The position numbers and the translations under genes are program-made. From Candidatus Woesearchaeota archaeon (GTDB lineage Archaea; Nanobdellota; Nanobdellia; Woesearchaeales; ARS49), in NCBI GenBank assembly GCA_016929895.1, contig JAFGHW010000048.1:1-61147 (forward strand): a DNA stretch of 61,147 nucleotides. Direction: 5' to 3'. Each line of letters begins with the position of its first letter. The stretch's first letter is position 1. Positions 38,023-56,379 of this stretch are shown here, piece by piece. Under the pieces are notes generated by a model. The model did not search any database. It was not told the origin of the DNA and saw only the letters and a program-made list of their open reading frames with translations.

Positions 38023-38372
38023 TTGTATTTAATCAGTATTACGTTTAAAAAAGATATAATGCTTTTTATAAATAATCCACACAGTTTTTGGTATCTTTGT
38101 TAAATTCTGGAATAAGTTAGGTATTATTAACTAACTGAGACTATGCTAATTTGAATGTAGAATCAAAAAAAGTGCTGTGCACTTAATAACATTTTTCCAA
38201 GAAATAAGATAGATAATTTGGGAAAACCAAAATTTCGCAAATCCTTCTGATTCTGTTTATTTGGTTGTTTAAATAATTTTTAACGCTTTAAAAATAATTA
38301 TCATTCTACATTAAAGAATTTATGGTTTGTTGTAGAAATCTTGCAGAAACATTTTTAAATTGAATCATATGA

Positions 38373-41083: not shown

Positions 41084-42075
41084 ACCAGAACTTCTTCAAC
41101 ACTTAATCTCTTAAAATAATCTCTATTTTTAGGATTTTTCCCGTAAATCTCAACATCTGGCTCGTAAATATCTTCATCTTTCCATAAAGCAACAGAACCC
41201 TTGGTTAAAGGAGCTTTTCTAGCAGGATTTGTAGGACCAAACAACGAAATAACCTTTGCTCCAGAAGCAGAAGCAATATGCATAGGCCCAGAATCACTAC
41301 AAATGACCAATTTGCAACGGCGCATTAATTCACACGATTGAGAAATATTTGTTTTTCCCGCAAAATTAAATATTTTTTTTCTTTTGCACTTGAGCAAAAT
41401 ATGTTTATTTAATTCAAAATCACTTTTTCCGCCTAATAAAAGGATTGAATATTTTTTAGGAATTTTATTAATTAATTCAATGAATTTTTCTTTAGGCCAT
41501 CTTCTTGAACCAACAACAGCGCCTCCAGGATTTTTAGCGCCTCCAGGAACAATCCCAATAAAATTCTTTATGCCTTTTGTTAATTTATCAACCAGTTCAA
41601 TATCCTCTTTAGACACAAACAAATCAATTTTTTTACTTTTTTCTTTAGCACCAACAACTCTTGCCAAATCAAGATAATAATCAATTTCATGCTTTAAAGA
41701 ACCATATTTTACATTAATCGTATTTGCAAAACCCTCTTTTCCACGATTAAACCCTATCCTAGTCTTAATACCTGTTGCAAAACCAAATAATCCTGCCAAA
41801 TAAGCCTTATCCAATATGAACAAAACATCATATTTCTGTTTTTTAATATTTTTTAATAATCTTAATTTACTAAAAATTTTTTTTGAATGAAAAATAGAAT
41901 CATCATATGCAAAAACTCTATTTAAATTATGATTATTTGCTACTGCTTTGGCCGACCATTTTCCAGTATGAAAATCAATAATTGCATTAGGAAATCTTTT
42001 TCTCAAAGCACGCAAAAAAGGAGTGGCCATAAGAATATCGCCTATTGCGCCAGATTTTAAAACTGCGATTTTCAT
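41071..42075 (-). CDS. GT9-family glycosyltransferase (heptosyltransferase-like)
   Basis: 334 aa with MKIAVLKSGAIGDILMATPFLRALRKRFP and a C-terminal CSDSGPMHIASASG, typical of ADP-heptose:acceptor heptosyltransferases. Confidence 0.82.
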   Translation of the reverse strand: MKIAVLKSGAIGDILMATPFLRALRKRFPNAIIDFHTGKWSAKAVANNHNLNRVFAYDDSIFHSKKIFSKLRLLKNIKKQKYDVLFILDKAYLAGLFGFATGIKTRIGFNRGKEGFANTINVKYGSLKHEIDYYLDLARVVGAKEKSKKIDLFVSKEDIELVDKLTKGIKNFIGIVPGGAKNPGGAVVGSRRWPKEKFIELINKIPKKYSILLLGGKSDFELNKHILLKCKRKKIFNFAGKTNISQSCELMRRCKLVICSDSGPMHIASASGAKVISLFGPTNPARKAPLTKGSVALWKDEDIYEPDVEIYGKNPKNRDYFKRLSVEEVLVHID

Positions 42076-42171
42076 TATTTTAATAACAAAAATATGATTT
42101 AAAAATGTTGTGGACTAGAAAATGCATGTTCATAAAATTTATAAACCTATTTTTAGCATGAACTTGTCAAA

Positions 42172-43527
42172 ATGAGATTGATTGACAAACTAAATCTTCT
42201 CCAAAACAAGAAGATTTTAGTGCTAGGAGACTTGATGCTTGATGAGTATGAATACGGCGAAGTTTCCAGAATATCGCAAGAAGCTCCTGTTCAGGTAGTA
42301 AAGTTTGAATATTCAAAAAAAGTTATTGGAGGGGCGGGAAATACCGCCAATAACCTTGTTTCATTAGGGGCAGAAGTTTTTCTTGCAGGGATTGTTGGAT
42401 CTGATCGGAAACACAAAGAACTTCTTGAATGTCTTAAACAAGCCAATATTAATTCAGAAGGAGTTATTACTGATAATACAAAGCCGACCATTGTGAAAAA
42501 AAGAATAGTTTCTGGAAAAAATCAATTAATACGAATCGATTATGAAGATAATAAACCCATCGATCATGAAGCACAAGAGAAAATTAAGCAATTCATACAG
42601 AAAAAAATAGATTTAGTAGATGTTATAGTAATCAGCGATTATGACAAAGGATTAATTAATGTTGACTTAATGAAATTTTTAATCAACTTATCTAATGAAA
42701 AAAAAATTCCGACTGTTTTAGACGGCAAATCACAAAATTTAGAATGTTTTAAGGATGTAACTTTAATAACACCCAATATACAGGAAGCCAGGCAAATGTC
42801 AGGCATTTATGACAACGTGGAAGAGATGGGCAAAGTTTTGGTTTCCAGGTTAAACACGAATCTTTTTTTAACTCGCGGAGCGGATGGGATATCTGTTTTT
42901 GAGAAAAATGGAAAAATAACTCATGTCCCAACTAAAAAAGTCCCAGTTTACGATGTTACAGGCGCAGGAGACACGGTTGTTGCAATATCCGCGCTTGGAC
43001 TGGCCAGCGGAATGAATTTTAAAGAAATCGCAGAAATAGCAAATATTGCAGGAAGAATAGTTGTTCAAAAACCGGGAACAGCTACTGTAACATTAGAAGA
43101 AATACGAAAAACAATGGATTCTATTTCTATACGAGAATCGCATGAAAAATACAAAAAAAAATGGGGCTATGAAGAATGGATAGTTAATTTAGATTCAGCA
43201 GGTTATTGCGGCAAAAAATTAATTTTAAATAAAGGTTATCAATGTTCTATACACTATCACAAAGAAAAAGATGAAGTTTTTTATATAAACAAAGGATTTG
43301 TATTGATGACTATCGATGGAAAACAAGAACTAATGAAACCAGAATCAAGAATACGAATCGAACCAGGAACAAGACACAGATTTATTGGGTTAACAGATGC
43401 AGAAATAATAGAGATTAGTTCATTTCATAAAGAAGAAGATAGTTATAGAGATGAGCCAAGCGGAAGGGTAAATGAGGAGAAGTTTAAAAATTATATTAAA
43501 AAATATTCAGATGAAATAAATGAATAA
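42172..43527 (+). CDS. D-glycero-beta-D-manno-heptose-7-phosphate kinase (RfaE domain I, PfkB family) fused to a C-terminal phosphomannose-isomerase-type cupin
   Basis: 451 aa. Kinase motifs are GGAGNTANN and DVTGAGDT. The cupin occupies residues about 329-432. Confidence 0.8.
   Translation: MRLIDKLNLLQNKKILVLGDLMLDEYEYGEVSRISQEAPVQVVKFEYSKKVIGGAGNTANNLVSLGAEVFLAGIVGSDRKHKELLECLKQANINSEGVITDNTKPTIVKKRIVSGKNQLIRIDYEDNKPIDHEAQEKIKQFIQKKIDLVDVIVISDYDKGLINVDLMKFLINLSNEKKIPTVLDGKSQNLECFKDVTLITPNIQEARQMSGIYDNVEEMGKVLVSRLNTNLFLTRGADGISVFEKNGKITHVPTKKVPVYDVTGAGDTVVAISALGLASGMNFKEIAEIANIAGRIVVQKPGTATVTLEEIRKTMDSISIRESHEKYKKKWGYEEWIVNLDSAGYCGKKLILNKGYQCSIHYHKEKDEVFYINKGFVLMTIDGKQELMKPESRIRIEPGTRHRFIGLTDAEIIEISSFHKEEDSYRDEPSGRVNEEKFKNYIKKYSDEINE
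43156..43467 (+). other. Cupin domain (type II phosphomannose isomerase C-terminal-like) inside the heptose kinase ORF
   Basis: The domain reads KKWGYEEWIV...KKLILNKGYQCSIHYHKEKDEVFYINKGFVLMTIDG...IRIEPGTRHRFIG...IIEISS...EEDSYRDEPSGR. It parallels the WG...K.i.v.PG..lS.Q.H.hR.EhW.vv.G.a...HR..N...iEvq.G..l.EdDI.R..D.YGR pattern of GMP/PMI C-terminal domains. Confidence 0.7.
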
Positions 43528-44107
43528 AGCAATATTCTTAGATAGAGATGGGACGATTAATGTAGATGATAAAGAAATATTTTTGCCTCGTTTGAATAAA
43601 AAAGTAAAAGGATATATTCATAAAATAGAAGATTGGGAATTTATACCCAAAGCATTGGAAGCCTTAATAAAGCTGTCTGAGTCTGAATATAAATTGATAA
43701 TAATAACAAATCAATCAGGGATTGGAAGAGGTTATTATACAGAAGAAGATTTAAAAAAGCTACATTTGCATGTCCTTTCTTATAATCATGTAAGAATAGA
43801 TGGAGTATATTTCTGCCCACATCATCCTGAGAAAGCAAGGGGGGTCTATAAAAAATTTTGCGACTGCCGAAAACCTGGAATAGGTTTGATTAAAAAAGCG
43901 GCCCAAGAACATAATATTGATTTAACCAAAAGTTATATGATTGGCGACAAAACAACAGATATTGAATGCGGCCGAAGAGCGGGATGCAAAACAATACTTG
44001 TAGAAACAGGAAATGCTGGAACAGACGGAACATATAACGCAGCTCCTGATTTTACTGCAACAAATTTGCATATGGCTGCAGAAATGATACTTAAGCAAAA
44101 TGAATAA
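43520..44107 (+). CDS. gmhB: D-glycero-D-manno-heptose 1,7-bisphosphate phosphatase
   Basis: 195 aa with HAD motif I FLDRDGTIN, ITNQSGI, the Zn-site-like CPHHP...CDCRKP, and GDKTTD. Confidence 0.85.
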   Translation: MNKAIFLDRDGTINVDDKEIFLPRLNKKVKGYIHKIEDWEFIPKALEALIKLSESEYKLIIITNQSGIGRGYYTEEDLKKLHLHVLSYNHVRIDGVYFCPHHPEKARGVYKKFCDCRKPGIGLIKKAAQEHNIDLTKSYMIGDKTTDIECGRRAGCKTILVETGNAGTDGTYNAAPDFTATNLHMAAEMILKQNE

Positions 44108-44585
44108 AATAAAAACAAAACAGGAAATAGCTGTGATTTGCGAAGAACTAAGAAGCCAAGGCAAGAAAATAGTAACGACCAATGGCAGTTTTGATATTCT
44201 CCATTACGGGCATGTATTCGCTTTTAACAAAGCAAAAGAACAAGGAGACATATTAATTGTCGGTCTTAACAGCGATATTTCCATTAAGAAATATAAAGGC
44301 AATGACAGACCGATAATACCACAAGAATACAGAGCAAAGTTATTAGCTGCTTTGGAATGCGTGGATTATGTTGTGCTTTTTGATGAAACAATACCTAATG
44401 ATTTTTTGGAAAAAGTAAAACCAGATGTTCATGTAAACGAAGCAAACTACGGAGAAAATTGCATAGAGGCGCCTGTTATTAAAAAACATGGCGGAAAACT
44501 TTATTTATTTAAAAGAGAAATTGAAGGAGTATCTACAACAGGAATTATCCATAAAATATTGAATGTCTATGGTAAAAAAGATTAA
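44100..44585 (+). CDS. D-glycero-beta-D-manno-heptose-1-phosphate adenylyltransferase (RfaE domain II / HldC-like)
   Basis: 161 aa with a cytidylyltransferase fold and TNGSFDILHYGH (HxGH). It overlaps gmhB by 8 nt. Confidence 0.83.
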   Translation: MNKIKTKQEIAVICEELRSQGKKIVTTNGSFDILHYGHVFAFNKAKEQGDILIVGLNSDISIKKYKGNDRPIIPQEYRAKLLAALECVDYVVLFDETIPNDFLEKVKPDVHVNEANYGENCIEAPVIKKHGGKLYLFKREIEGVSTTGIIHKILNVYGKKD

Positions 44586-45721
44586 ATTAATTTTTCTGCC
44601 TCTTTATATACTTCGCCGACAGAAATTAAATTAATGCAATTCTTATTATTTTTGCATTTAGAAGGCAATTGTCCCTTATGAACATTAATGCAAGGCCGGC
44701 ATCTTAAAGGTTTTTCTAAGGAAACATTCTTTTTTCCAAAGGGAGCAAATCTAACAGATAAATTAGGGCCAAAAAGGCCGATTGTTTTTGTCCCCTGTGC
44801 TGCGGCAACATGCATGGGGCCAGTATCATTGCTGATAAATAACTTACATTTTTTAACAAGATAAAATAATGCGGTTTTGGATGTTTTGCCGGCAAGATTT
44901 ATCGACGATGAATTCATTATTGAACGAATTTTCTCTATTCTTTTGTGCTCATTAGGAGATCCGACAAAAATAATTTTTGCATTCTTTTTTTTAGCTAATT
45001 TATCTGCAAGCTTGGCAAAATTCTCAGCAGACCAGGACCTGTGCTTGGCAGACTCAGCAGTCCCCGCACACAAACCGATAATCTTATCCTTTTTTTTGAT
45101 TTTTGCCTTTTCAAGAATTGAATTTACTTTAGTTTTATCATTACTTGAATAAGAAAGTTTTACAAGACTTTTGGGGGCATGATAAATTCCTAATTGCTTT
45201 GCCATATCCATGTACGTCAAAACTTCATGCTGTTTATCATTAAAATCAACAGGATGCGTATACAACCAATAACGAACAGTATGAGAAAAACCAATTCTTT
45301 TCTTAGCGCAAAACCAAGAAAGAAGTCCGCTCAATTTAAGATAAGGTTCGCAATCGATTGACAAATCGAATTTACTGAACATTTTTAAAAATTTTAAAGC
45401 ATTTCTTGGCTCGATTAAGATTATTCTGTTAATAAACGGAAGATTTTGAAATACATGAGCATTTTTATCCCTGGCTAAAATAGTAATATTAGAATCAGGA
45501 TATTTGTGTTTAATACTTTTAATCATAGGCAATGTAAGAACTGATTCTCCAAGAGCCCATAATTTTATTACAGCAATATTATTTAACTTTTTTATTTTCT
45601 TATTTTTAGAAGGCAAAATTCTATTATTTATTCCTAACACAAAACAAAGAAAAGAACCTATACATTTATCAATCAGCCATTCTATTTTTGCCATTGCCTT
45701 TTTTGAAACCTCTAATTGCAA
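44582..45721 (-). CDS. GT9-family glycosyltransferase (heptosyltransferase-like), second copy
   Basis: 379 aa with IKLWALGESVLTLPMIKSIKHKYP and ISNDTGPMHVAAAQG. Confidence 0.8.
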   Translation of the reverse strand: MQLEVSKKAMAKIEWLIDKCIGSFLCFVLGINNRILPSKNKKIKKLNNIAVIKLWALGESVLTLPMIKSIKHKYPDSNITILARDKNAHVFQNLPFINRIILIEPRNALKFLKMFSKFDLSIDCEPYLKLSGLLSWFCAKKRIGFSHTVRYWLYTHPVDFNDKQHEVLTYMDMAKQLGIYHAPKSLVKLSYSSNDKTKVNSILEKAKIKKKDKIIGLCAGTAESAKHRSWSAENFAKLADKLAKKKNAKIIFVGSPNEHKRIEKIRSIMNSSSINLAGKTSKTALFYLVKKCKLFISNDTGPMHVAAAQGTKTIGLFGPNLSVRFAPFGKKNVSLEKPLRCRPCINVHKGQLPSKCKNNKNCINLISVGEVYKEAEKLI

Positions 45722-46028
45722 GTTCGCGCGTTAATGTGCTAATATTCTGCTCCAAGCTTTCAAATTTAACATAAATTCTAAAAATCATATAAAACAAAAG
45801 AATAATACTTAAATATGCAACAAAATCTGTGCCTCGTTTTATCCCAACTAAGTCTGCAAAGTATGAAACTCCGTGAGGAGCGAAAGCAAAGACAACTGCG
45901 AGAGTCCAGAGAATAGTCCAAAATAACAGTCCTTGCCTGCTTATTTTTTTATCTTTAAATCTTAAAAAAGCCCTGCTTATAGCAAATAAAGCCACAAGTA
46001 CAATACATAATTTTATTATCCAATACAT
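45669..46028 (-). CDS. DUF2304-like small membrane protein (GT2 partner)
   Basis: 119 aa with about 3-4 TM helices. It sits immediately downstream of a GT2 gene, which is the usual genomic context for this family. Confidence 0.6.
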   Translation of the reverse strand: MYWIIKLCIVLVALFAISRAFLRFKDKKISRQGLLFWTILWTLAVVFAFAPHGVSYFADLVGIKRGTDFVAYLSIILLFYMIFRIYVKFESLEQNISTLTRELAIRGFKKGNGKNRMAD

Positions 46029-46031
46029 TTT

Positions 46032-46712
46032 TTACCTCGCAATTTTTTTTAAAATCATTCCTGCAATGACTTTAACCGCGCCCAAATAGGATCCATGCCC
46101 TTTTTTTAATGTTTCTTTATCATATTTAATAGTAACAGGCACTTCTTTAAATCTTATTTTTTTCTTGTGAATTTCTTCAATTATCTCTGATGCATGAGCC
46201 ATTCTATCGCATGTGATAGATATTTTCTTTGCTGCTGTCTTGGACATGGCACGCAATCCGTTATGAGCATCACTCATTTTTATTCTGTAAAACAAAAACA
46301 TAACCAAAACCGAACCCTTTAAAAGAATCTTTCTGAAAAAAGGAACCTTGCTCTTTTCAATGAACCTTGAACCAATAGTTATATCAGCTTCGCCTTTAAG
46401 TATTGGTTCAAGAATAGATTTTAAGTCTTCTACTCTATGCTGACCATCAGAATCAAATGTAACAATTACGTTGGCATCATTTTGCAAAGCAAAATCAATT
46501 CCGGTTTTTAACGAAGCTCCCTGGCCTCGGTTAATAGCATGCTGTAATAAATAAACTGGGAATTCGGAGGCTATGGCGTATGTATTATCTCCGCTATGAT
46601 CATCTATAACAACAATTTTATCATAATTCGCTTTTAATAAATTAGAAATAACTCCAGAAATAGCTTTTTCTTCGTTAAAAGCAGGGATAACAATAAAGAT
46701 TTTATCAGTCAT
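46032..46712 (-). CDS. GT2 polyprenyl/dolichyl-phosphate glycosyltransferase
   Basis: 226 aa with IVIPAFNEE, IDDHSGDNT and FDSDGQH. Confidence 0.85.
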   Translation of the reverse strand: MTDKIFIVIPAFNEEKAISGVISNLLKANYDKIVVIDDHSGDNTYAIASEFPVYLLQHAINRGQGASLKTGIDFALQNDANVIVTFDSDGQHRVEDLKSILEPILKGEADITIGSRFIEKSKVPFFRKILLKGSVLVMFLFYRIKMSDAHNGLRAMSKTAAKKISITCDRMAHASEIIEEIHKKKIRFKEVPVTIKYDKETLKKGHGSYLGAVKVIAGMILKKIAR

Positions 46713-46754: not shown

Positions 46755-49700
46755 TCAATCTATCTCGATAATTTTTATCTTAAAATTTAACGTCTGATTT
46801 CCAAGAGGATGTTTTTTAGCATTAATACCATAAGCATCTTCAGGGGCGATTTTTGTAGTCTTGACAGAACCTTTTTGCATACCTTTAACCCCTTCATCAA
46901 AACCCTTAATCATTTTTCCTTCGCCCACTTTGAATTGCAAGGGAGTATTTTCATATTCATCAAAATCTGCGTTTTTGGAAATATTTTTAGAGTTCCAATC
47001 ATTTATACTCGAATCAAAAACAGTTCCATTTTCAAGCCAACCAATATATTCAACAACAACAATATCGCCTTTGGAAACAATTGTCTTTTCAATCAAATCA
47101 GGATGAATATTGGGCTTATGGCCCTCCCAATCTGCTTTCCAAACATAAATCATTCCGCCAGTGACCTGCCTTTGTTCATCAAAAAGATCAAAATGTTTAA
47201 GTCCATGACCTTTTAAGAAAAATAATCTTGTAAACATGCTCATAGCAAGCTCTTTTGAAACAAGAATACTACTGTATCCGCTTCCTTCAGGAATCAAAAC
47301 AGCAGAAATTTCAACTTCAGTATTATCGAATTCTTTTTCAATTACTTTTTTAGATTCTTTATCAATATAAACCAAAGATTTTGGAACTCCTGCTCTATTT
47401 TGGATATTAATTAATGCGGTATATTCTGAATTATTCTTCTTAACAATCAAGCCATTACTGCATTTAATTATATTGTTGCTTTCTGCGCACCCACTAATAC
47501 TTGAAGCAAAACCAGGCCATGGAGAAATCCATGCATTTGCTTCTTTCTCATCTGTAATAGCTTGGGCTTCAAAATAAATATTCTCTGCTTGTTCTTCACT
47601 AAAATTATATTTTTCAACCATTGTTTGAACCGCTTCTGTCCTATCAAGACGCCTTAAATTAACCCAAACATCTGCACGTTTAAAATCCCATCCACCAAAA
47701 TGCGCCCAAACTCCTGCCTTATTAATCATATCCGCGGAAGTAATAAAATAATTTTCAGGAGGAGAACAATGAGTATATTGAAGAATTTCTTCCGGATCAT
47801 CAAAATATTCTGTTAAAATATCTTTTGCCTCTTCTTTCCCAACAGTGATTATTGTATAAATTAAATCAACACTTTTGGCAGTATCTTGAAGTTTTTCATT
47901 AATCAATTCAAATGCATTATTTGAACCGCAATCAAGCATGCGCAGAATACCAACAGCAACATCTTCATTATCTGTTAGAAGCGCCTTACCAATCCAATGA
48001 GCATGAGGATAATTCTGTGTTGCTCCGTCAAAAGTAACTGCCCTATCCGCAATATACTTAAAATGATGACCAAAATCCCACCAAGAATTAATAATTGCAT
48101 TAGGCGCAGATTCTTCTTTAATCTTAGTCAATGAATTCCACCAAGCATCATTAATTATAGGAAAATTATTGTTAATAGATGCATAACTGCTTTTAGTAGG
48201 CGAAATAAGCAAGATTCCAAATATTGTGATAATTACAATGCCAGAAACCCATTTTGGAATCTTTAACTCTTTTTTCATCCATTTAGAAACCCAAATATGA
48301 ATCATGCCTGCGGCAACACCAAAAGCAATTGAAAAAGCAGGCACTAAAAGTAAAACAAATCGAACACCTTTTGTTGAAGCGTATATCGTGCTCGCAAACC
48401 AAACAATCAATAAAACTGCATATTTAATATCCCTCCTTTTTCCTGAAGAATCTTTAATGGTTAGAGTTAATAGAATCCCAATTGAACTAATTAAAAAAAG
48501 AAATTTTCCTCCAATGCCATCAATAATCGAAGATATAGATGCGGGATTAAGTTCTGCAACAGTAGTGTAAACATTAGGCCATAAGTTAGCATGTGACGCT
48601 GCTTTGATTACTGTGAATGTAAACGGGGCAAGAATAATATTGGTAAATGAATCCACGCTTGAAAAGATACTTATAAATATTCCTGAGAAAATAAAAAAAG
48701 TGCATGCTATTAAAAAAATATTTTTTAATTCTCTACTTTCTTTAAGAAAACTTGGCTTTTTTATGATTTCTGTATAATTAAAAATGATTAAATAAGCCAA
48801 ATTTATAAATAACGTAATCAATAAGAAGTAGAAAACATACCACCAGCCCCCGGCCCATGCTTTTGAAAAAATTGCAAGAGAAAATGCAGTAAGAGCAGAG
48901 AATAAAAGTTTCTTTTTATAACTTTTGGCAATAATGCTTTCTATAAACAACCAAACTATCAGAATAGGAAAAAATATATTATACGCATCTGTATCTGCGT
49001 GCCCCCAAGGAGTTCTTCCAAGGGCGCCAACATTTAAAACCATCATAGACGCGGCAAAAAAACCTCCAACATTCCCTGCTAACCTTTTTCCAATAAAGAA
49101 AATTGGAAACAAAGACAGAAAAATCATTATAATGGGAAAATATGTTGCAGACTGCATCAATGGAATATTTGAATTAAAAAAACTCATTATTTTATACAAA
49201 AAAACAAGAAAAAAATGATGAAAATTAATACTTACTCGTCTTCCAAGCGGAGCAAGTGAATGATCATCCCATGTTGTGCCATCTTTGATAGTATCCGCAA
49301 AACTTCCAGTTTCAATTTTATTTCTCGCGAATCTCAAATAAGTATAAGGATCAATATCTGGCATGTATACATATGATTTACCATTACTTTCATATTGGAA
49401 TCTTGAACGAAATTGTTTGGCCATTTCTTTTATTTGCGCATCAACAGTTTCTTTTTGTTCAGAAAGAATTTTATTAAGCTCTTTATCAACTAACTTATTT
49501 TTATTTTCTTCAGGAAGATTTGGGTATTGCCTGTTGATTTGCTCACTAATCTGGTTCTTGTAAAAATTATGAACCGAATCTGCGGCCCAATTATCAATCT
49601 GAGGCAAATTCTGTGACTGCATTCTCATCCAAAGACCGCCCCAGGGGAAAAAGCCTGCGTTAGGCATGAACTGTAAAATAATCAAAAGTACCAGAATAAA

Positions 49701-49880
49701 AATTATTTGATGTTTTTTTACTAAATGGAATATTTTTGTAATGTCAATTGTTTGAAAAGAATCTTTATCTTGTCCTTCATCAACTCTGTTTTCAGGATGT
49801 TTAATATTTTTTTTTATTTTTCTAAAGAAATCTCCTATTTTCTTGAAATCTATACTTATTTCTTCATTACTTTCTTCCAT
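46755..49880 (-). CDS. aglB: Archaeal oligosaccharyltransferase AglB (STT3 family) with C-terminal FKBP-type peptidyl-prolyl isomerase domain
   Basis: 1041 aa, multi-pass in the N-terminal two thirds. The first-loop acidic motif is MPDIDPYTYLR. The WWDFG catalytic motif is encoded at nt 48069-48083. The last ~105 aa form an FKBP domain. Confidence 0.9.
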   Translation of the reverse strand: MEESNEEISIDFKKIGDFFRKIKKNIKHPENRVDEGQDKDSFQTIDITKIFHLVKKHQIIFILVLLIILQFMPNAGFFPWGGLWMRMQSQNLPQIDNWAADSVHNFYKNQISEQINRQYPNLPEENKNKLVDKELNKILSEQKETVDAQIKEMAKQFRSRFQYESNGKSYVYMPDIDPYTYLRFARNKIETGSFADTIKDGTTWDDHSLAPLGRRVSINFHHFFLVFLYKIMSFFNSNIPLMQSATYFPIIMIFLSLFPIFFIGKRLAGNVGGFFAASMMVLNVGALGRTPWGHADTDAYNIFFPILIVWLFIESIIAKSYKKKLLFSALTAFSLAIFSKAWAGGWWYVFYFLLITLFINLAYLIIFNYTEIIKKPSFLKESRELKNIFLIACTFFIFSGIFISIFSSVDSFTNIILAPFTFTVIKAASHANLWPNVYTTVAELNPASISSIIDGIGGKFLFLISSIGILLTLTIKDSSGKRRDIKYAVLLIVWFASTIYASTKGVRFVLLLVPAFSIAFGVAAGMIHIWVSKWMKKELKIPKWVSGIVIITIFGILLISPTKSSYASINNNFPIINDAWWNSLTKIKEESAPNAIINSWWDFGHHFKYIADRAVTFDGATQNYPHAHWIGKALLTDNEDVAVGILRMLDCGSNNAFELINEKLQDTAKSVDLIYTIITVGKEEAKDILTEYFDDPEEILQYTHCSPPENYFITSADMINKAGVWAHFGGWDFKRADVWVNLRRLDRTEAVQTMVEKYNFSEEQAENIYFEAQAITDEKEANAWISPWPGFASSISGCAESNNIIKCSNGLIVKKNNSEYTALINIQNRAGVPKSLVYIDKESKKVIEKEFDNTEVEISAVLIPEGSGYSSILVSKELAMSMFTRLFFLKGHGLKHFDLFDEQRQVTGGMIYVWKADWEGHKPNIHPDLIEKTIVSKGDIVVVEYIGWLENGTVFDSSINDWNSKNISKNADFDEYENTPLQFKVGEGKMIKGFDEGVKGMQKGSVKTTKIAPEDAYGINAKKHPLGNQTLNFKIKIIEID
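46758..47090 (-). other. FKBP-type PPIase domain at the C-terminus of AglB
   Basis: The domain reads GDIVVVEYIGWLENGTVFDSS...PLQFKVGEGKMIKGFDEGVKGMQKGSVKTTKIAPEDAYG...LNFKIKIIEI. It matches the FKBP consensus GD.V.V.Y.G.L.dG..FDSS...P..F.lG.g.vI.G..eg..GM..G....l.IP...aYG. Confidence 0.85.
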
Positions 49881-49999: not shown

Positions 50000-50710
50000 A
50001 TGATGCTATCAGTTGTAATCGCGATTTATAACGAAGAAAAGAATGTTAAGGAATTAACACTGCGATTAATAAAAACACTTAATTCTTTAAAAATTCCTTT
50101 TGAAATAATATATATTGTTGAAGGGGAGGATCAAAGCATAAATATTTTAAAACAACTACAGAAAAAAGAAAAACGCTTGCGATTATTTTATTCTAAAAAA
50201 CCCTCTGGACTTGGCCGCGCTTTTAAAACAGGTTTTTGTAATATCCGCAGGGATTCTACACATATCCTTACATTAGATGCTGACCTTAATCATCAACCAG
50301 AAGAAATTCCTTATTTTTTTAAGCTTATGAAAAAACAAAATGCAGATATGGTTATTGGGTCTAGATTTGTTTCTGGCGGGTCAATAGATATTTTTCCATG
50401 GCATAAACGAATAGTAAGTAGATTTACAAATGTTCTCGTTGAAATTGTTACAGGAATAAAAGCTAAGGATAAAACATCTAATTACCGACTTTACACCCGG
50501 CAAGCCCTAAACTGCGTTGTTAACAAAATGAAATTTCCTGGCTTTGAAACCGTAGTGGAAATGCTTTTAATCACCGCAAAAAATAAATTTAGAATCGCTG
50601 AAACACCCATACAATTCAAATGGAGAGTCCATGGAGAATCCAAATTAAACATGTTCAAAACTGCGATAGGTTATTTTAAACTATTCCTTAGAATTTCATC
50701 TTACAAATGA
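50000..50710 (+). CDS. GT2 dolichyl-phosphate hexose synthase-like glycosyltransferase
   Basis: 236 aa with VVIAIYNEE, VEGEDQS and LDADLNHQP, a dolichol-phosphate-mannose-synthase-like pattern. An ATGA overlap links it to the next gene. Confidence 0.85.
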   Translation: MMLSVVIAIYNEEKNVKELTLRLIKTLNSLKIPFEIIYIVEGEDQSINILKQLQKKEKRLRLFYSKKPSGLGRAFKTGFCNIRRDSTHILTLDADLNHQPEEIPYFFKLMKKQNADMVIGSRFVSGGSIDIFPWHKRIVSRFTNVLVEIVTGIKAKDKTSNYRLYTRQALNCVVNKMKFPGFETVVEMLLITAKNKFRIAETPIQFKWRVHGESKLNMFKTAIGYFKLFLRISSYK

Positions 50711-52467
50711 CAGAGAAAATTATGAGTTCTATGCGCAAACGGAATAATGCAATTATTTTATTAGTTGTACTAATATTGGTATCATTGATATTAAGGGTTC
50801 CTAATTTGGGTTTTCCTTTTTTTGGGGATGAAGCTTGGCACGACTTTGTTAAATTTCATAAAGGAAATCTTTTTTCTTTAAAATATACCTCTATAGACGG
50901 GGAGGATACTATTCCAATTGATCCTCCGTTAACAGGATGGTTTTATTTATTATACAGCTTGATTTTTGGATTCTCAACGATTATATTACGCTCTACAAGT
51001 CTTTTATTCGCCTTGATTAATATATTTTTGGTATATACTATTGCAAAAAAAGTGTTTGACCGAAAAACTGCCTTGTTTTCAACTTTTTTATTGGCAATAA
51101 GCTACTGGCACTGCATTGAATCATATATTTTAGACAGAGATGGAAATTTTTTAATCTTTTTTTATTTAGTAATACTTCTTCTTTATCTTTATTACCGCGA
51201 AACAAAAAACAAGAGATATTTGTGGCTTGGCGCCCTGATATCTATACCATACATGTTTATAAAAATTTCAGGAGTCTTAATCACCGCCATACTGTTTATT
51301 TCAATTTTATACGACAATAAAATATTCCAATTTCTATTTAAAAATGTAAGAAATCTTTTGAATATTGAAATATACCGCAAATCTAATTTTAAAATAGCTT
51401 TTTTTGAAATATCCCCTTTTATACTGGCGAATATATTATCTTACCTTATATTTATTGGAGGAACCTTTCTTCTCAGTCCGGAATACTTTTCTGCACTACT
51501 AACACAAGAAGCAATACCTATTGAATTTTTTACAGCGTCATGGATTAAATCTATTGCGCGAGAAATAATCTATCTTTTCTTATACGGCTCTCCGCTTTTA
51601 ATTGGGCTTTCTATATTATCAATAATACATTTTCACAAAAAGAAAGTTTTATTCCTCTTCTGGCTTTTTGTTCCGATTTTAGCATATTCAAAAATACCAT
51701 ACGCGGGCGCTCTTGAAAGATACTTGTCAGTAATATTGCCGCCGCTCTGCATTCTTGGCGGCGCTTTTTTAGCAAAACTAAATTTACGCAAAAAGCAATA
51801 TTGGCTACTTGGCGGGGTATTATTCTTTTCTTTTCTTTTACTTAATATATTCAGTCTTTTTAAAGCAGAATATCTCCAGCATAATATAAACGAATACTTT
51901 TTAAGAGCAGCAACACTTAAATGGCATTTTCTTTTCCCGTTTTATGGTGCGGGAGGGCCTGCATTTTTAGTGCCTTTTTGGGTGGTAGCTATTTCTGTTC
52001 TATTAAGCATGTTGTTTTTGGTCTTTGCAATATTTTTCCTGAAACATAAAAAGATTTTTTTTATTTTTCTAACACTTTTTTTGGCAGTCAGTCTTTCATT
52101 TAATCTTTATATTCTTCAAGAATTCAATTTTTCAATCCATTCGCCCAATATCCGAGCAGGTTTTAATGATTTGCTTCAAGAATTAAACACAGAATCCACA
52201 GATAAAATTTACACAAACATTGGTTCTATACGAGTTTATACTGATAGAGATATTCAATTTATTAGATTATGGTGCCCTAAAGATGATTACTCCTGTTGGT
52301 CTGAATTAGATTCTAAAATAAAAACAACAGGCGGAGCAGCGTATATTCTTGATTTTCCAAGAACTTTTGAAAGTTCTATGCGCAGTACAATAATTGAAAA
52401 AAACTGCCAACTAAGAAAAGAGATTTCAGATAAGCAGGCAAGAATAGGAATGATATATGATTGCTAG
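50707..52467 (+). CDS. GT-C fold membrane glycosyltransferase (PMT_2/ArnT-like)
   Basis: 586 aa. The first loop reads FFGDEAWHDF, followed by IDPPLTGWFY and then many TM helices and a C-terminal soluble domain. Confidence 0.75.
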   Translation: MTEKIMSSMRKRNNAIILLVVLILVSLILRVPNLGFPFFGDEAWHDFVKFHKGNLFSLKYTSIDGEDTIPIDPPLTGWFYLLYSLIFGFSTIILRSTSLLFALINIFLVYTIAKKVFDRKTALFSTFLLAISYWHCIESYILDRDGNFLIFFYLVILLLYLYYRETKNKRYLWLGALISIPYMFIKISGVLITAILFISILYDNKIFQFLFKNVRNLLNIEIYRKSNFKIAFFEISPFILANILSYLIFIGGTFLLSPEYFSALLTQEAIPIEFFTASWIKSIAREIIYLFLYGSPLLIGLSILSIIHFHKKKVLFLFWLFVPILAYSKIPYAGALERYLSVILPPLCILGGAFLAKLNLRKKQYWLLGGVLFFSFLLLNIFSLFKAEYLQHNINEYFLRAATLKWHFLFPFYGAGGPAFLVPFWVVAISVLLSMLFLVFAIFFLKHKKIFFIFLTLFLAVSLSFNLYILQEFNFSIHSPNIRAGFNDLLQELNTESTDKIYTNIGSIRVYTDRDIQFIRLWCPKDDYSCWSELDSKIKTTGGAAYILDFPRTFESSMRSTIIEKNCQLRKEISDKQARIGMIYDC

Positions 52468-53667: not shown

Positions 53668-54795
53668 ATGAGTAAATATTCAAGAATACTTGTTGCAGGA
53701 ACGGCTTTATTAGCTCTTTATTCAATTATGGGCGGATGCCGTTCTTCACAAAAATATACTGTTCCTGGAATGAATAAAAATTCTTTTGCAGGCTATTCTC
53801 TTAAAAAATCACCTTCTGGCCAGCTTATAATATCACAAGCAGATGATTCTGAGCCTTTATTTTCAGAACCTGCAGAGGATTCATATCAAGGTTCTTACCA
53901 AGACAAAAATGTAAATGTGATTGTTAAACCAAGAACAAAAAGAAAAGTATTAACAGACATTGCAGCAAAAATTGAAGCAGGAAAAGAATACCAGGAAGCA
54001 AGAGCAGGCACAAAAGCAATAATCAGACCAGATGAATCTTGGAGAATAATCCCTGAAATAACAGGAGCAATAGCAACAAAGCCTTATTCTGATGGACGCT
54101 CTGCGCAATTAGACCAATTAGTTGCTGGTATAAGAGCTGGGGCATATCAGCCAATGCGAATAGGAGACTTTATTGATGGATTTGCAAAAGACCTACAATT
54201 ATATTTAGAAGGCGGTGCTCATATAATGGGCGGAAAATACAACGGAAGACTTGATGAAGAACATTATGCCGCCCTAGCAAGAATAGGAATAGGCTTATTC
54301 TCACAAGAAGCAGGAACATATCTAAAAGCAATGTTAGCAGCAGGACCAGGAAGATTTTCAATAGACTTAACTGATGAAGACAGAGAGAGATTAGGATTAG
54401 ATTCAAATACAATAAGTGATTCGTTAGTAAGAGCAATTATTGATGTTCAAGCAAGACAAGATATTTGGAAAGGGATATATGCCAAAGGAAGATTTAATGT
54501 TTCTGTACAGAATAGAGAGAATTGGGATAATTACAGAGCAATTGCTTCTGAATTAGGAATAGGACTTAGAGGAGAATTCCCTGGAGTTTTTGAAAGATGG
54601 TATATGGAAGCATTGGCAACATATAGAGATGAATTAGACCAATATTTCAATAATACATCTGCAAACCGGAACATATTTGGCGGAAGAATTGGAGCAGGAG
54701 CACAGATTGGAAGAAACAGCGTAGTAGAATTAGCATTAGAATACGACGAAGAACTTTTATTAAGCTTAATATTGCAATGGCTAGTTAGGCTTTGA
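53668..54795 (+). CDS. Secreted or lipid-anchored protein of unknown function (lipobox-like signal)
   Basis: 375 aa. The N-terminal hydrophobic segment ends in LYSIMGGC. The composition is rich in Gly/Ala/Arg, unlike the Lys/Ile/Asn-rich glycan-locus proteins. Confidence 0.5.
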   Translation: MSKYSRILVAGTALLALYSIMGGCRSSQKYTVPGMNKNSFAGYSLKKSPSGQLIISQADDSEPLFSEPAEDSYQGSYQDKNVNVIVKPRTKRKVLTDIAAKIEAGKEYQEARAGTKAIIRPDESWRIIPEITGAIATKPYSDGRSAQLDQLVAGIRAGAYQPMRIGDFIDGFAKDLQLYLEGGAHIMGGKYNGRLDEEHYAALARIGIGLFSQEAGTYLKAMLAAGPGRFSIDLTDEDRERLGLDSNTISDSLVRAIIDVQARQDIWKGIYAKGRFNVSVQNRENWDNYRAIASELGIGLRGEFPGVFERWYMEALATYRDELDQYFNNTSANRNIFGGRIGAGAQIGRNSVVELALEYDEELLLSLILQWLVRL

Positions 54796-54804
54796 GGTTA
54801 AAAA

Positions 54805-56379
54805 ATGGCAGAAGAAAATGGCAATCAAGATAAGGATCCTAAAAGACCGTCGTTAGGCGAGATGTTTAAAAAAATGGATGAGAAAGGAAAGAAAGGTGCA
54901 AAACCAATAGAAGAAGATCAACCAGGCGAAACAGTTACAGATGTGCCTGATATTAGTGGAGGTATAACTGATGATAGTTTTTCAGAAAGAAGAACAAGAG
55001 AAGCTGAGAATACTCCAGAAAGTGGCGATTCAGGATTGTTATACGATAATCTCGATAATCTAAATCTTGACGAAGAACCAAATCCTGCAGAACCATTACC
55101 GCAAGAAATTGTTCCTGAACAACCTTCTGAAGCAGGTATGCAACCGCCATCACAAGAGGGTTTTCCTGAAGATTTTTATGAAGACGATACGCCACCACAA
55201 GCATCATCACAAATACCAAGATCTGCATTTGGAAGTGCAATAAGACATCCTGCAGTGACTATGTTGGGCGCGGGAGTGATAGCATTTTTACTACTTCAAG
55301 CATCAAATTTTATGGCAAATTGGTATACCTCATCTAAGAAAAAAGATAAAACAGAAGCATCTATCCCGGCTGAAGATTCAGATTTAGAAGGCATTTCAGC
55401 AGAACTAAAAAAGCTGGGAGCAAAATTTGATATTAACGAATCAAACAATCGCAGGAAATACATTAGCATGATTGAATCTAATAAAAAATTAGAAGCAAAA
55501 GTATCTGACTTGGAACAATTAAAAACAAATCCAGAAACAGCACCAATGAAAGAAATGGAAGATTATCAAAAAGAAATTATGATAAGTAATAAGCGCATGA
55601 TGGATGCATATCGCAAAGAACTGCAAAACCGTGTTAATGCTGCATTAAAATCAATAAAGAATACAGGAGGCTCTGTGCAAGTAAGACCAATAGAAACAAC
55701 AGAACCTATAAAACCAGTAGAGCCTAAAGAAAAACCAAACGATAAACCAGAATATGATCCAATTACGCAATACAATGATTTAATGGAAATGACAACCAAA
55801 GATGAGATTATAACATCATATGAATTAGCACAAGCAACTAGCAATTGCAGACACATATTAGGTTTATTGCAAAAAAATCACCCTGTTTACGGCAAATTTG
55901 CAAGAAACAGCGAAACAATCAGAACATTAGAGCAAACTGCTAACAAATATTTAAACTTTGCAAATCAAGTACTCTTGGAAAATGAAACAGTCCAGCATAA
56001 TGAGAAATACAAAAAAGTAGAATTAAGAATAAATATAGATGCTTTGAAAAATGGCGCTGAAAAAAGCAAAAGCACAGGATGGATGGATTTAGAAATATCT
56101 TTATCTGATTTTTTTAAAATAGATAGTAATGTATATTTAGCATTGATAGTTAATTATGGAAATCCTGTTTCAGTCCTAAAACAAGGCAAAGCAGCAGAAG
56201 AATTTGTCTATAAATTACTAGAAAATGCAAAGATTTTTGATTCTGGCAAAGCATTCACAGCAGATGCAATTAAAAATGCAAAAGTAAAAGGATTAGCATT
56301 AAGATTAACCTCGCCTGATGGCGCAGAACTAACTGCAAAAAATTTACAAGATTATTTAAAACAAGATAGGGGGGATTAA
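54805..56379 (+). CDS. Single-pass membrane protein with ~150-aa acidic/proline-rich N-terminal region and helical C-terminal domain; function unknown
   Basis: 524 aa with one hydrophobic helix (AVTMLGAGVIAFLLLQASNF). The start lies 9 nt after the preceding stop. AGGT lies 8 nt upstream (within TGAGGTTAAAAA, which abuts the ATG). Confidence 0.5.
   Translation: MAEENGNQDKDPKRPSLGEMFKKMDEKGKKGAKPIEEDQPGETVTDVPDISGGITDDSFSERRTREAENTPESGDSGLLYDNLDNLNLDEEPNPAEPLPQEIVPEQPSEAGMQPPSQEGFPEDFYEDDTPPQASSQIPRSAFGSAIRHPAVTMLGAGVIAFLLLQASNFMANWYTSSKKKDKTEASIPAEDSDLEGISAELKKLGAKFDINESNNRRKYISMIESNKKLEAKVSDLEQLKTNPETAPMKEMEDYQKEIMISNKRMMDAYRKELQNRVNAALKSIKNTGGSVQVRPIETTEPIKPVEPKEKPNDKPEYDPITQYNDLMEMTTKDEIITSYELAQATSNCRHILGLLQKNHPVYGKFARNSETIRTLEQTANKYLNFANQVLLENETVQHNEKYKKVELRINIDALKNGAEKSKSTGWMDLEISLSDFFKIDSNVYLALIVNYGNPVSVLKQGKAAEEFVYKLLENAKIFDSGKAFTADAIKNAKVKGLALRLTSPDGAELTAKNLQDYLKQDRGD

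What the first reader, a model, noticed from the sequence alone, without database searches (positions are those of the whole stretch)
46755..49880. AglB oligosaccharyltransferase fused to a C-terminal FKBP peptidyl-prolyl isomerase
Seen: one uninterrupted 1041-aa ORF carries the STT3/AglB hallmarks, namely the multi-pass N-terminal region, the acidic first loop and WWDFG at nt 48069-48083. It ends in a full FKBP domain (nt 46758-47090) matching the FKBP consensus.

Established: the C-terminal globular domain of AglB/STT3 lies on the extracytoplasmic face, and most archaeal FKBPs are cytoplasmic.

Inference: the PPIase would be displayed outside the membrane, physically tethered to the N-glycosylation active site. 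That could couple proline isomerisation or chaperoning of emerging S-layer and surface proteins to sequon glycosylation. It would loosely parallel the OST-associated folding factors of eukaryotes.
Basis: partly seen in the sequence, partly recalled or inferred. Interest (0 to 1): 0.8.

Follow-up and report, generated by a model that had tools for sequence, protein, structure and literature searches.

The report
Archaeal glycosylation enzyme with built-in foldase
A DPANN (Woesearchaeota-type) archaeon encodes its N-glycosylation enzyme AglB as one protein with a prolyl-isomerase (FKBP) domain on the outer face of the membrane; this fusion is real, conserved in dozens of species and sometimes replaced by a different prolyl isomerase, which suggests that protein folding and glycosylation are physically coupled at the cell surface.

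Summary
Window 46755-49880 (-) is one uninterrupted 1041-aa ORF. It has an STT3/AglB membrane domain, the AglB core with WWDFG and DMINK, a 13-residue linker and a complete C-terminal FKBP domain.

It is not an assembly artefact. More than 100 protein clusters (39-67% identity) from NCBI, JGI, ENA and Logan share the architecture, as do 40 of the best 80 species-representative genomes, all Woesearchaeota/Nanoarchaeota MAGs.

The FKBP part is as conserved as the catalytic parts and co-diverges with them. Its active-site residues are kept in at least 90% of members. No hydrophobic segment follows the last TM helix, so the FKBP lies on the same extracytoplasmic side as the WWD catalytic domain.

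In some relatives (P0072, L048, fragments P0148-P0151) a parvulin-type PPIase sits at the same position. This argues for selection on PPIase function itself.

Function remains inferred: a tethered foldase/holdase acting on exported AglB substrates. I found no description in the searched literature. The nearest analogies are FKBP11 at the human OST-A translocon, the Ost3/6 thioredoxin subunits, and bacterial PrsA/PpiD. I rate it a new variant of known kinds, of moderately high interest.

The parts
46755..49880 (-). Whole AglB-FKBP gene (1041 codons plus stop at 46755-46757)
   Evidence: ORF; Pfam; translation check
49710..49880 (-). N-terminal cytoplasmic tail (res 1-57) with the acidic/amphipathic motif EEISIDFKKI; low AF2 confidence
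   Evidence: family consensus
48159..49709 (-). Multi-pass membrane domain (res 58-574): TM1, the long external loop EL1 (about res 76-219), further TM helices, last TM about res 543-570
   Evidence: Pfam STT3 res 171-552; hydropathy; AF2 helices; Foldseek to PglB/STT3/AglB
49350..49358 (-). D175-I-D177, the acidic catalytic motif of external loop 1
   Evidence: D175 is nearly invariant (at least 90%); I176 and D177 are invariant in 107 sequences
48987..49001 (-). HADTD (res 294-298), the second acidic motif; D296 and D298 invariant
48552..48566 (-). TTVAE (res 439-443), the TIXE-type motif of external loop 5; E443 invariant
47121..48158 (-). C-terminal globular (extracytoplasmic) AglB domain, res 575-920
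   Evidence: PF21436; AF2; Foldseek 3aag/3vu1
48069..48083 (-). WWDFG (res 600-604), the WWDYG-type catalytic motif
47718..47732 (-). DMINK (res 717-721), the DK motif of the Ser/Thr-binding pocket; D717 and K721 invariant
47082..47120 (-). Linker HKPNIHPDLIEKT (res 921-933); the most variable segment of the family (24.9% mean pairwise identity); not hydrophobic
46758..47081 (-). FKBP-type PPIase domain (res 934-1041), at the extreme C-terminus
   Evidence: Pfam E 4.6e-20; PDB sequence hits 1ix5, FKBP25, FKBP12; active-site mapping; Foldseek FKBP13/FKBP12 TM 0.75-0.82
46947..47006 (-). 'Bulge' insertion INDWNSKNISKNADFDEYEN (res 959-978), shared with archaeal FKBP17 (1ix5); contains an N-I-S sequon kept in 76/107 members
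46032..46712 (-). Downstream co-oriented GT2 gene (PpgS/AglJ-like polyprenyl-phosphate glycosyltransferase), 42 nt after the AglB stop; probable operon partner
   Evidence: a homolog lies immediately downstream on the same strand in 33/80 related loci
45669..46028 (-). DUF2304 small membrane protein, next gene in the same direction

Best explanation
The gene encodes a catalytically competent archaeal oligosaccharyltransferase (AglB, STT3 family) from a Woesearchaeota-type DPANN archaeon. Its extracytoplasmic C-terminal globular domain continues, through a roughly 13-residue linker, into a canonical FKBP-type peptidyl-prolyl isomerase domain.

Shown here: the architecture, its conservation, the intact catalytic residues of both modules, the lack of any further membrane span, and the exchange for parvulin in relatives.

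Inferred: the FKBP is displayed outside the membrane next to the glycosylation site. There it would act as a tethered foldase/holdase. It would bind exported, still unfolded polypeptides (S-layer, pilin-like and other surface proteins) and catalyse or delay proline-limited folding steps. Sequons would then stay accessible to AglB, and the substrates would fold correctly after glycan transfer.

In effect this would be a one-polypeptide version of 'OST plus folding factor'.
For: - Single ORF with STT3, core and FKBP domains.
- All OST motifs are invariant or nearly invariant: D175xD177 (D175 at least 90%, D177 invariant), D296xD298, E443, WWD600-602, D717..K721.
- High-confidence AF2 model (pLDDT 92.6, pTM 0.85), with the linker also above 90.
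- The model matches PglB, STT3A/B and AfAglB, and separately FKBP12/13.
- FKBP pocket residues are conserved in 97-105 of 107 sequences (I56 position 87/107).
- The FKBP is as conserved as the catalytic domains (47.5% versus 43.7% and 49.7% mean pairwise identity), the linker is at 24.9%, and FKBP divergence tracks AglB divergence (Spearman 0.59; 0.70 between the two AglB parts).
- No TM-grade hydrophobic segment after res 575.
- 40/80 species representatives carry the fusion, with a 3-29 aa linker and the FKBP at or within 6 residues of the C-terminal end. About 55 clusters at 50% identity carry it.
- A parvulin PPIase occupies the same position in P0072, L048 and fragments P0148-P0151. Its nearest free relatives are bacterial extracytoplasmic foldases (PrsA/SurA/PpiC type).
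- A free relative of this FKBP subtype has a lipoprotein-type export signal (P0324), and others are exported tandem-FKBP proteins.
- FKBP-less relatives end in N-x-S/T-rich tails, as expected for an outside-facing terminus.
- The gene sits in a glycan-biosynthesis cluster.
Against: - No biochemical data exist, and all carriers are uncultured MAGs.
- About half of the close relatives lack any PPIase and have no FKBP gene within 6 kb, so the module is dispensable for AglB function.
- A few members have degenerate FKBP domains that have lost pocket residues (P0093, P0105, P0056). This suggests a non-catalytic role, at least in those lineages.
- Human FKBP11 at OST-A acts as an adaptor with its pocket buried (PMC12804085).
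- The model's coordinates and PAE were not available, so the distance and orientation of the FKBP pocket relative to the OST active site are unknown.
- Topology was inferred from homology and hydropathy, not from a dedicated predictor.
Confidence: 0.6

Rival explanations
1. General surface foldase that merely uses AglB as its membrane anchor. In this view the PPIase serves all exported proteins, in the manner of PrsA or PpiD, with no specific link to sequon glycosylation. The fusion would simply economise on a signal peptide or anchor in a reduced genome.
For: The nearest free relatives of the swapped-in parvulin are PrsA/SurA-type general foldases. A free lipoprotein FKBP of the same subtype exists (P0324). 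The module is dispensable in about half of the relatives.
Against: Two unrelated PPIase folds were both recruited to the same point on the same protein. The short linker is modelled with high confidence. The FKBP co-diverges with AglB. These points suggest a specific partnership rather than an arbitrary anchor, but they do not exclude this reading.
Confidence: 0.25
2. Non-catalytic structural or adaptor domain. The FKBP fold would stabilise the AglB globular domain, mediate oligomerisation, or dock another surface or translocon component, as FKBP11 does at the human OST-A translocon. Isomerase activity would be irrelevant.
For: FKBP11's pocket is buried and it acts as an adaptor (PMC12804085). 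Degenerate FKBP domains are retained in some lineages (P0093 Pfam E 0.0028; P0105 no Pfam hit). The linker is modelled confidently, which suggests a fixed docking.
Against: Pocket residues are conserved in 97-105 of 107 members, which a pure scaffold would not require. Replacement by a parvulin, a different fold with the same enzymatic activity, is hard to explain if only shape matters.
Confidence: 0.12
3. Artefact: two adjacent genes (aglB and an FKBP gene) joined by an assembly or sequencing error, or the FKBP is actually cytoplasmic.
For: None found. The window protein itself is known from one contig only.
Against: The same in-frame fusion occurs in more than 100 clusters from independent projects, in 40 species representatives, and in about 55 clusters at 50% identity. 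No separate FKBP gene lies next to the unfused relatives. No hydrophobic span separates the domains.
Confidence: 0.02

Closest known systems
AglB / PglB / STT3 oligosaccharyltransferases (e.g. Archaeoglobus fulgidus AglB-L 3waj/7e9s, Campylobacter lari PglB 5ogl/6gxc)
   Same: Same membrane-domain fold and C-terminal globular domain (Foldseek E 1e-12 to 1e-22). Same catalytic motifs: DxD, TIXE-like, WWDxG and DK. Single-subunit enzyme within a glycan gene cluster.
   Different: Carries an additional C-terminal FKBP PPIase domain, a long helical EL1 (about 145 residues) and an N-terminal cytoplasmic tail with repeated acidic/amphipathic motifs. None of the solved OSTs retrieved here has a PPIase domain on the catalytic chain.
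Human FKBP11 at the Sec61/OST-A secretory translocon (PDB 9n9j; Nature 2025, PMC12804085)
   Same: An FKBP-fold domain positioned on the lumenal (topologically extracytoplasmic) side next to an STT3-family OST.
   Different: FKBP11 is a separate single-pass membrane protein recruited via the ribosome. Its pocket is buried by CCDC134 and it is proposed to be an adaptor, not an isomerase. Here the FKBP is covalently fused, has no TM helix of its own, and its pocket residues are conserved. Nothing indicates common descent of the association.
Eukaryotic OST oxidoreductase subunits Ost3/Ost6 (TUSC3/MagT1)
   Same: From my own knowledge, not tested here: a folding-modulating domain (thioredoxin) attached to the OST. 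It delays substrate folding so that more sequons are glycosylated. This is the functional logic proposed for the fusion.
   Different: Different fold and chemistry (disulfide rather than prolyl), separate subunits, and eukaryote-specific.
Bacterial membrane-tethered extracytoplasmic PPIase foldases (PrsA lipoprotein, PpiD at SecYEG; periplasmic SurA, FkpA)
   Same: A PPIase domain held at the outer face of the cytoplasmic membrane to assist exported proteins. The parvulin domains that replace the FKBP in P0072 and L048 are most similar to PrsA/SurA/PpiC-type proteins.
   Different: Those are stand-alone chaperones anchored by a lipid or a single TM helix. None is fused to a glycosyltransferase.
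Archaeal short-type FKBP17/18 (Methanothermococcus thermolithotrophicus FKBP17, PDB 1ix5)
   Same: Best PDB sequence match (E 1.6e-13, res 935-1019). Shares the 'bulge' insertion and the L and F replacements at the FKBP12 F46 and W59 positions.
   Different: MtFKBP17 is cytoplasmic and carries the insert-in-flap (IF) chaperone domain. The window domain lacks the IF insert and is predicted to be extracytoplasmic.

Membership tests
STT3/AglB/PglB oligosaccharyltransferase (GT-C, CAZy GT66) | Multi-pass N-terminal membrane domain matching the STT3 profile | tested here: met
   PF02516 E 3e-35, res 171-552; Foldseek to PglB 6gxc/5ogl E about 1e-22, TM (target) 0.67
STT3/AglB/PglB oligosaccharyltransferase (GT-C, CAZy GT66) | Acidic DxD motif in external loop 1 and a second acidic pair for metal and acceptor binding | tested here: met
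   D175 nearly invariant (at least 90%); D177, D296 and D298 invariant in 107 sequences. Assignment to the loops is by position and homology.
STT3/AglB/PglB oligosaccharyltransferase (GT-C, CAZy GT66) | TIXE/SVSE-type motif in external loop 5 | tested here: met
   T439-T-V-A-E443; E443 invariant
STT3/AglB/PglB oligosaccharyltransferase (GT-C, CAZy GT66) | WWDYG motif plus DK (or MI) motif in the C-terminal globular domain | tested here: met
   WWDFG res 600-604 and DMINK res 717-721; W600, W601, D602, G604, D717 and K721 invariant; PF21436 hit
STT3/AglB/PglB oligosaccharyltransferase (GT-C, CAZy GT66) | Transfer of lipid-linked glycan to Asn of N-x-S/T | not testable with these tools
   Requires an enzyme assay. 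Context supports it: the adjacent PpgS/AglJ-like GT2 and other glycosyltransferase genes.
Archaeosortase-A-associated AglB (TIGR04154) | Score above the NCBIfam cut-off (450 bits) | tested here: not met
   49.8 bits versus a cut-off of 450. It is an AglB but not of this subfamily.
FKBP-type peptidyl-prolyl isomerase (PF00254) | Profile match above the gathering score, and the FKBP fold | tested here: met
   72.2 bits versus a cut-off of 21.1; Foldseek FKBP13 4nnr/2pbc TM 0.80-0.82, FKBP12 0.75
FKBP-type peptidyl-prolyl isomerase (PF00254) | Hydrophobic/aromatic pocket residues (FKBP12 Y26, F36, D37, I56, W59, Y82, F99) | tested here: met
   Y945, F955, D956, I991, F994, Y1017, F1033. Each is kept in 97-105 of 107 family members, except I991 at 87/107. 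W59 to F and F46 to L, as in archaeal FKBP17.
FKBP-type peptidyl-prolyl isomerase (PF00254) | Measured cis-trans isomerase activity / FK506 binding | not testable with these tools
   Needs a protease-coupled or refolding assay on the isolated domain.
SlyD / archaeal FKBP17-type chaperone FKBPs | Insert-in-flap (IF) chaperone domain | tested here: not met
   The alignment with FKBP12 and FKBP17 shows no insertion between the AYG motif and the last strand. The 1ix5 match stops at res 1019.
FKBP11-type translocon-associated FKBP | Separate polypeptide with its own signal peptide, C-terminal TM helix and basic ribosome-binding tail | tested here: not met
   The FKBP is the extreme C-terminus (ends ...IIEID), with no hydrophobic or basic tail. 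Features of FKBP11 are taken from PMC12804085.
Extracytoplasmic membrane-tethered PPIase foldases (PrsA/PpiD-like, functional class) | PPIase domain located outside the cytoplasmic membrane and tethered to it | tested here: inconclusive
   Supported by homology-based topology and the absence of any TM segment after res 575. No dedicated topology predictor or experiment was available.

The most novel reading that the evidence does not exclude
Woesearchaeota-type archaea have evolved a self-contained 'glycosylate-and-fold' machine, in which the PPIase module is a dedicated substrate-handling subunit of the OST. It would capture exported polypeptides and control proline-limited folding so that sequons are presented to the active site. 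The recruitment of two unrelated PPIase folds (FKBP and parvulin) to the same position would show that isomerase/holdase activity itself is what is selected. This would be the first prokaryotic OST with a built-in folding factor. It would also be a simple, single-chain model for how eukaryotic OST accessory factors (Ost3/6, FKBP11) couple folding to glycosylation.
Probability: 0.4. Interest if true: 0.8.

Novelty: new variant of a known kind. Interest (0 to 1): 0.64.

Why it matters
How N-glycosylation competes with protein folding is a central question for OST biology. In eukaryotes the answer involves multi-subunit complexes that are hard to dissect. In prokaryotes, glycosylation is thought to be largely restricted to flexible regions of proteins that are already folding.

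A natural, conserved, single-polypeptide OST-PPIase offers a minimal system for testing whether a tethered foldase raises sequon occupancy or broadens substrate range. Two features make the test cleaner: natural variants carry a parvulin instead of the FKBP, and close relatives carry neither.

It would also be one of the first indications of a dedicated extracellular prolyl isomerase in Archaea. The archaeal PPIase survey I checked (PMC8530231) does not mention any membrane-linked or STT3-linked form.

There is a practical side too. Such fusions could improve engineered glycoprotein production in bacteria.

Tried and rejected
- **FKBP-only homolog search.** It returned only 27 short proteins or fragments and none of the full-length fusions. 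The word-indexed tool seems to favour proteins of similar length, so it gave no information on spread.
- **Search with the AglB tail plus parvulin of P0072.** It had the same limitation. It did reveal four fragments (P0148-P0151) that cover the junction, and it showed that the free relatives are PrsA/SurA-type.
- **Model geometry.** I wanted the distance between the FKBP pocket and the OST active site. The structure tool returns no coordinates or PAE, so this was not possible.
- **TM helix count.** I could not count the TM helices unambiguously from DSSP and hydropathy: about 12-13 helices, with two very long ones. The topology argument therefore rests on homology plus the absence of hydrophobic segments after res 575.
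- **NJ tree of the AglB part.** It is star-like at depth. It shows patchy FKBP presence (about 10 parsimony changes) but cannot separate one ancient gain with losses from several gains. It also cannot say whether the two parvulin fusions share one origin.
- **Gene-fission counterpart.** I looked for a separate FKBP gene next to the unfused aglB genes and found none within 6 kb.
- **Conserved N-Q-T at res 1028-1030.** I considered it as evidence of self-glycosylation and rejected it, because N-x-T at this position is a general FKBP motif (own knowledge). The N-I-S/T in the bulge (76/107) is only suggestive.
- **Literature searches.** None found a description of the fusion. Subscription-only papers on AglB phylogeny could not be searched.
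Full report
**1. Observation**

One search lists one uninterrupted ORF on the minus strand, 46755..49880 (1041 aa, ATG start).

- Pfam finds STT3 (PF02516, res 171-552, E 3e-35), the STT3/PglB/AglB core domain (PF21436, res 597-733) and FKBP_C (PF00254, res 934-1037, E 4.6e-20).
- NCBIfam gives only weak subfamily hits. The archaeosortase-associated AglB model TIGR04154 scores 49.8 bits against a cut-off of 450. The protein is therefore an AglB outside the curated subfamilies.
- The window holds no second AglB or FKBP gene.

**2. The fusion is real and is a family trait**

- The homolog search returned 593 relatives. The best 120 are 39-67% identical and mostly 1000-1140 aa. Nearly all carry both PF02516 and PF00254. 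They come from NCBI, JGI, ENA and Logan assemblies.
- Where these are named, they are Candidatus Woesearchaeota, DPANN or Nanoarchaeia. A few records carry evidently wrong labels (Firmicutes, Dojkabacteria).
- A scan of GTDB species representatives found at least 584 relatives. The best 80 loci are Woesearchaeota/Nanoarchaeota MAGs.
- I built HMMs from the alignment and searched all ORFs of those loci. 40 of the 80 have the FKBP in the same ORF. The linker is usually 9-12 residues (range 3-29), and the FKBP is always at or within 6 residues of the C-terminal end.
- Of the remaining 40, one locus (L048) has a parvulin domain instead, and 39 have no PPIase. The 39 either end right after the AglB domain or carry short acidic tails rich in N-x-S/T. 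No separate FKBP gene lies within 6 kb of them.
- An exhaustive HMMER search of 1.84 billion cluster representatives, using res 880-1041 (AglB tail plus FKBP), found 42 hits at E<=1e-30. About 55 representatives align across the whole query at the extreme C-terminus of 1000-1220 aa proteins.
- An assembly or frameshift artefact is therefore excluded for the family. Read-level checking of this particular contig was not possible.

**3. Both modules look functional**

I aligned the window protein with 106 relatives (A1). The OST catalytic residues are invariant or nearly so:

| Motif | Residues |
|---|---|
| EL1 acidic motif (MPDIDPY) | D175 (nearly invariant), D177 |
| Second acidic motif (HADTD) | D296, D298 |
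| TIXE-type motif (TTVAE) | T439, T440, A442, E443 |
| WWDYG-type motif (WWDFG) | W600, W601, D602, G604 |
| DK motif (DMINK) | D717, K721 |

Mapping FKBP12's pocket onto the domain gives the following, with counts out of 107 family members:

| FKBP12 residue | Window residue | Kept in family |
|---|---|---|
| Y26 | Y945 | 105 |
| F36 | F955 | 97 |
| D37 | D956 | 105 |
| I56 | I991 | 87 |
| W59 | F994 | 97 |
| Y82 | Y1017 | 103 |
| F99 | F1033 | 105 |

- F46 is replaced by L. The best PDB sequence match is the archaeal FKBP17 1ix5 (E 1.6e-13), which shows the same L and F replacements and the same 'bulge' insertion.
- The insert-in-flap chaperone domain of FKBP17/SlyD is absent.
- Mean pairwise identities by region are 43.7% for the membrane domain, 49.7% for the globular domain, 47.5% for the FKBP and only 24.9% for the linker.
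- Pairwise FKBP divergence correlates with AglB divergence (Spearman 0.59, against 0.70 between the two AglB parts). The FKBP has thus been inherited together with AglB under purifying selection.
- A few members (P0093, P0105, P0056) retain a degenerate FKBP that has lost pocket residues.

**4. Structure and topology**

- AF2 with alignment A1 gives pLDDT 92.6 and pTM 0.85. Only the first 45 or so residues are of low confidence, and the linker scores above 90.
- Foldseek against the PDB matches PglB (6gxc and 5ogl, E about 1e-22), human and yeast STT3 and A. fulgidus AglB over the first 900 or so residues. The C-terminal domain matches FKBP13 and FKBP12 (TM 0.75-0.82).
- Hydropathy shows the last TM-grade segment at res 539-566. 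The 19-residue Kyte-Doolittle maximum is 1.21 after res 575 and 0.88 after res 880, and the model shows beta structure there.
- The WWD/DK domain must sit on the same side as the EL1 and EL5 acidic residues to form the active site. In all solved OSTs that side is extracytoplasmic or lumenal (established knowledge). The FKBP is therefore outside.
- This is an inference from homology. No dedicated topology predictor or model coordinates were available.
- Three findings are consistent with it. FKBP-less relatives have sequon-rich tails. A free relative of this FKBP subtype has a lipoprotein-type signal (P0324: MIKKILLVALCVLIVGCSS...). Other close relatives are exported tandem-FKBP proteins.

**5. 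Parvulin replacement: the most informative new result**

- P0072 (1108 aa) and locus L048 carry a PPIC/parvulin-type domain exactly where the FKBP sits. In P0072 this is PF00639/PF13616, E 1e-27 to 1e-30, res 999-1104.
- Four further fragments (P0148-P0151) span the AglB tail plus parvulin.
- The closest free parvulins are bacterial PrsA/SurA/PpiC-type extracytoplasmic foldases.
- Two unrelated folds with the same enzymatic activity, attached at the same point of the same enzyme, argue that prolyl isomerase/chaperone function is what is selected, rather than a particular shape.
- On a rough NJ tree the FKBP state is patchy, with about 10 parsimony changes. The window protein lies in a uniformly FKBP-positive clade. 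The tree is too poorly resolved at depth to count gains against losses.

**6. Context**

- The gene is followed after 42 nt by a co-oriented GT2, the best NCBIfam matches being PpgS and AglJ-like polyprenyl-phosphate glycosyltransferases. This arrangement is found in 33 of 80 related loci.
- After that come a DUF2304 gene and a GT9 heptosyltransferase gene.
- Nearby are a split ADP-heptose pathway (HldE kinase domain, GmhB, HldE adenylyltransferase domain), a second GT9, a DegT aminotransferase, another GT2 and a PMT_2 GT-C enzyme.
- This is a surface-glycan biosynthesis island in a genome of about 31% GC.

**7. Mechanism (inferred)**

- AglB glycosylates exported proteins on the outer face of the membrane. 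It needs the sequon in an extended, unfolded conformation.
- A tethered FKBP would bind unfolded segments and catalyse or gate proline-limited folding steps. That would keep substrates competent for glycosylation and help them fold afterwards.
- The logic parallels the Ost3/Ost6 thioredoxin subunits of eukaryotic OST (own knowledge), and PrsA and PpiD in bacterial secretion.
- Foldseek's fourth hit (9n9j) led to a 2025 Nature paper (PMC12804085). It shows human FKBP11 positioned beside OST-A at the Sec61 translocon. There, however, FKBP11 acts as an adaptor whose pocket is buried by CCDC134. This is both the nearest precedent and the basis of the main rival reading, a non-catalytic scaffold.
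- The dispensability of the module in about half of the relatives, and the degenerate copies, weigh against an essential catalytic role.

**8. Novelty**

- Full-text searches combining AglB or STT3 with FKBP, PPIase, parvulin, DPANN or Woesearchaeota found no description of the fusion.
- A 2024 review of archaeal N-glycosylation and a 2021 survey of archaeal PPIases do not mention it.
[quoted passage not shown] The architecture is therefore visible to domain databases but apparently undiscussed. Subscription-only literature could not be searched.
- I classify it as a new variant of known kinds, with moderately high interest.

Noticed in passing
P0072 (res 999-1104); L048 6001-9228 (tail after AglB); fragments P0148-P0151: Relatives of the window protein carry a parvulin (PPIC-type) PPIase at the same C-terminal position as the FKBP. 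This is a swap between two unrelated isomerase folds. The nearest free parvulins are bacterial PrsA/SurA-type foldases.
   Followed up: yes
window 41071-45721: A split ADP-heptose pathway lies directly beside the aglB operon: an HldE kinase domain fused to a cupin (42172-43527), GmhB phosphatase (43520-44107) and an HldE adenylyltransferase domain (44100-44585). It is flanked by two GT9 'LPS heptosyltransferase'-like genes (41071-42075 and 44582-45721). This suggests heptose in an archaeal surface glycan or N-glycan.
   Followed up: partly
window 49710-49880 (res 1-57) and N-termini of P0002-P0120: The cytoplasmic N-terminal tail of this AglB family carries 1-4 copies of an acidic-then-amphipathic motif (for example EEISIDFKKI, followed by F..KK). 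68 of 120 family members match a strict pattern. Its function is unknown; it may be a membrane-binding or partner-binding helix.
   Followed up: partly
L030, L032, L039, L053, L062, L067, L070 etc. (C-terminal tails of FKBP-less AglB): Relatives without a PPIase often end in 30-100 residue acidic, low-complexity tails packed with N-x-S/T sequons. This is consistent with an outside-facing, possibly self-glycosylated C-terminus.
   Followed up: partly
P0093, P0105, P0056 (C-terminal about 110 residues): These members have degenerate FKBP domains. The start of the domain (NFIGWLDNGTIFDSSI) is kept, but the GxGxxIxGF and AYG pocket segments are lost (Pfam E 0.0028 or no hit). They may be non-catalytic remnants.
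   Followed up: partly
P0324, P0364, P0294, P0301, P0273: The closest free-standing relatives of this FKBP subtype include a 150-aa protein with a lipoprotein-type signal (LIVGC) and the same bulge insertion, and exported proteins with 3-6 tandem FKBP domains.
   Followed up: partly
window 50000-52467: A divergently transcribed GT2 (50000-50710) overlaps by 4 nt a 586-aa PMT_2-type GT-C glycosyltransferase (50707-52467). The PMT_2 protein has no homolog (E<1e-10) in any of the 80 related loci, unlike the GT2 (62/80).
   Followed up: partly
L005, L010, L016, L024, L041 and others; P0015, P0022: Many public records that carry this Woesearchaeota-type gene are labelled 'uncultured Methanosarcinales', 'Firmicutes bacterium', 'Candidatus Dojkabacteria' or 'Aminicenantes'. 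These are probably placeholder taxonomy or binning errors.
   Followed up: no
window 35126-36916 (-), 53668-54795 (+), 54805-56379 (+), 58473-61031 (+): Three large ORFs have no Pfam match at E<=1e-5. An 852-aa ORF has only Ig-like/FixG_C-type hits and may be a surface protein, and thus a candidate AglB substrate. None was examined further.
   Followed up: no
window 37024-39326: A radical-SAM/SPASM protein (37024-38022) and an LPG_synthase_TM-family membrane protein (38373-39326) sit within the glycan island. Their roles are unclear.
   Followed up: no
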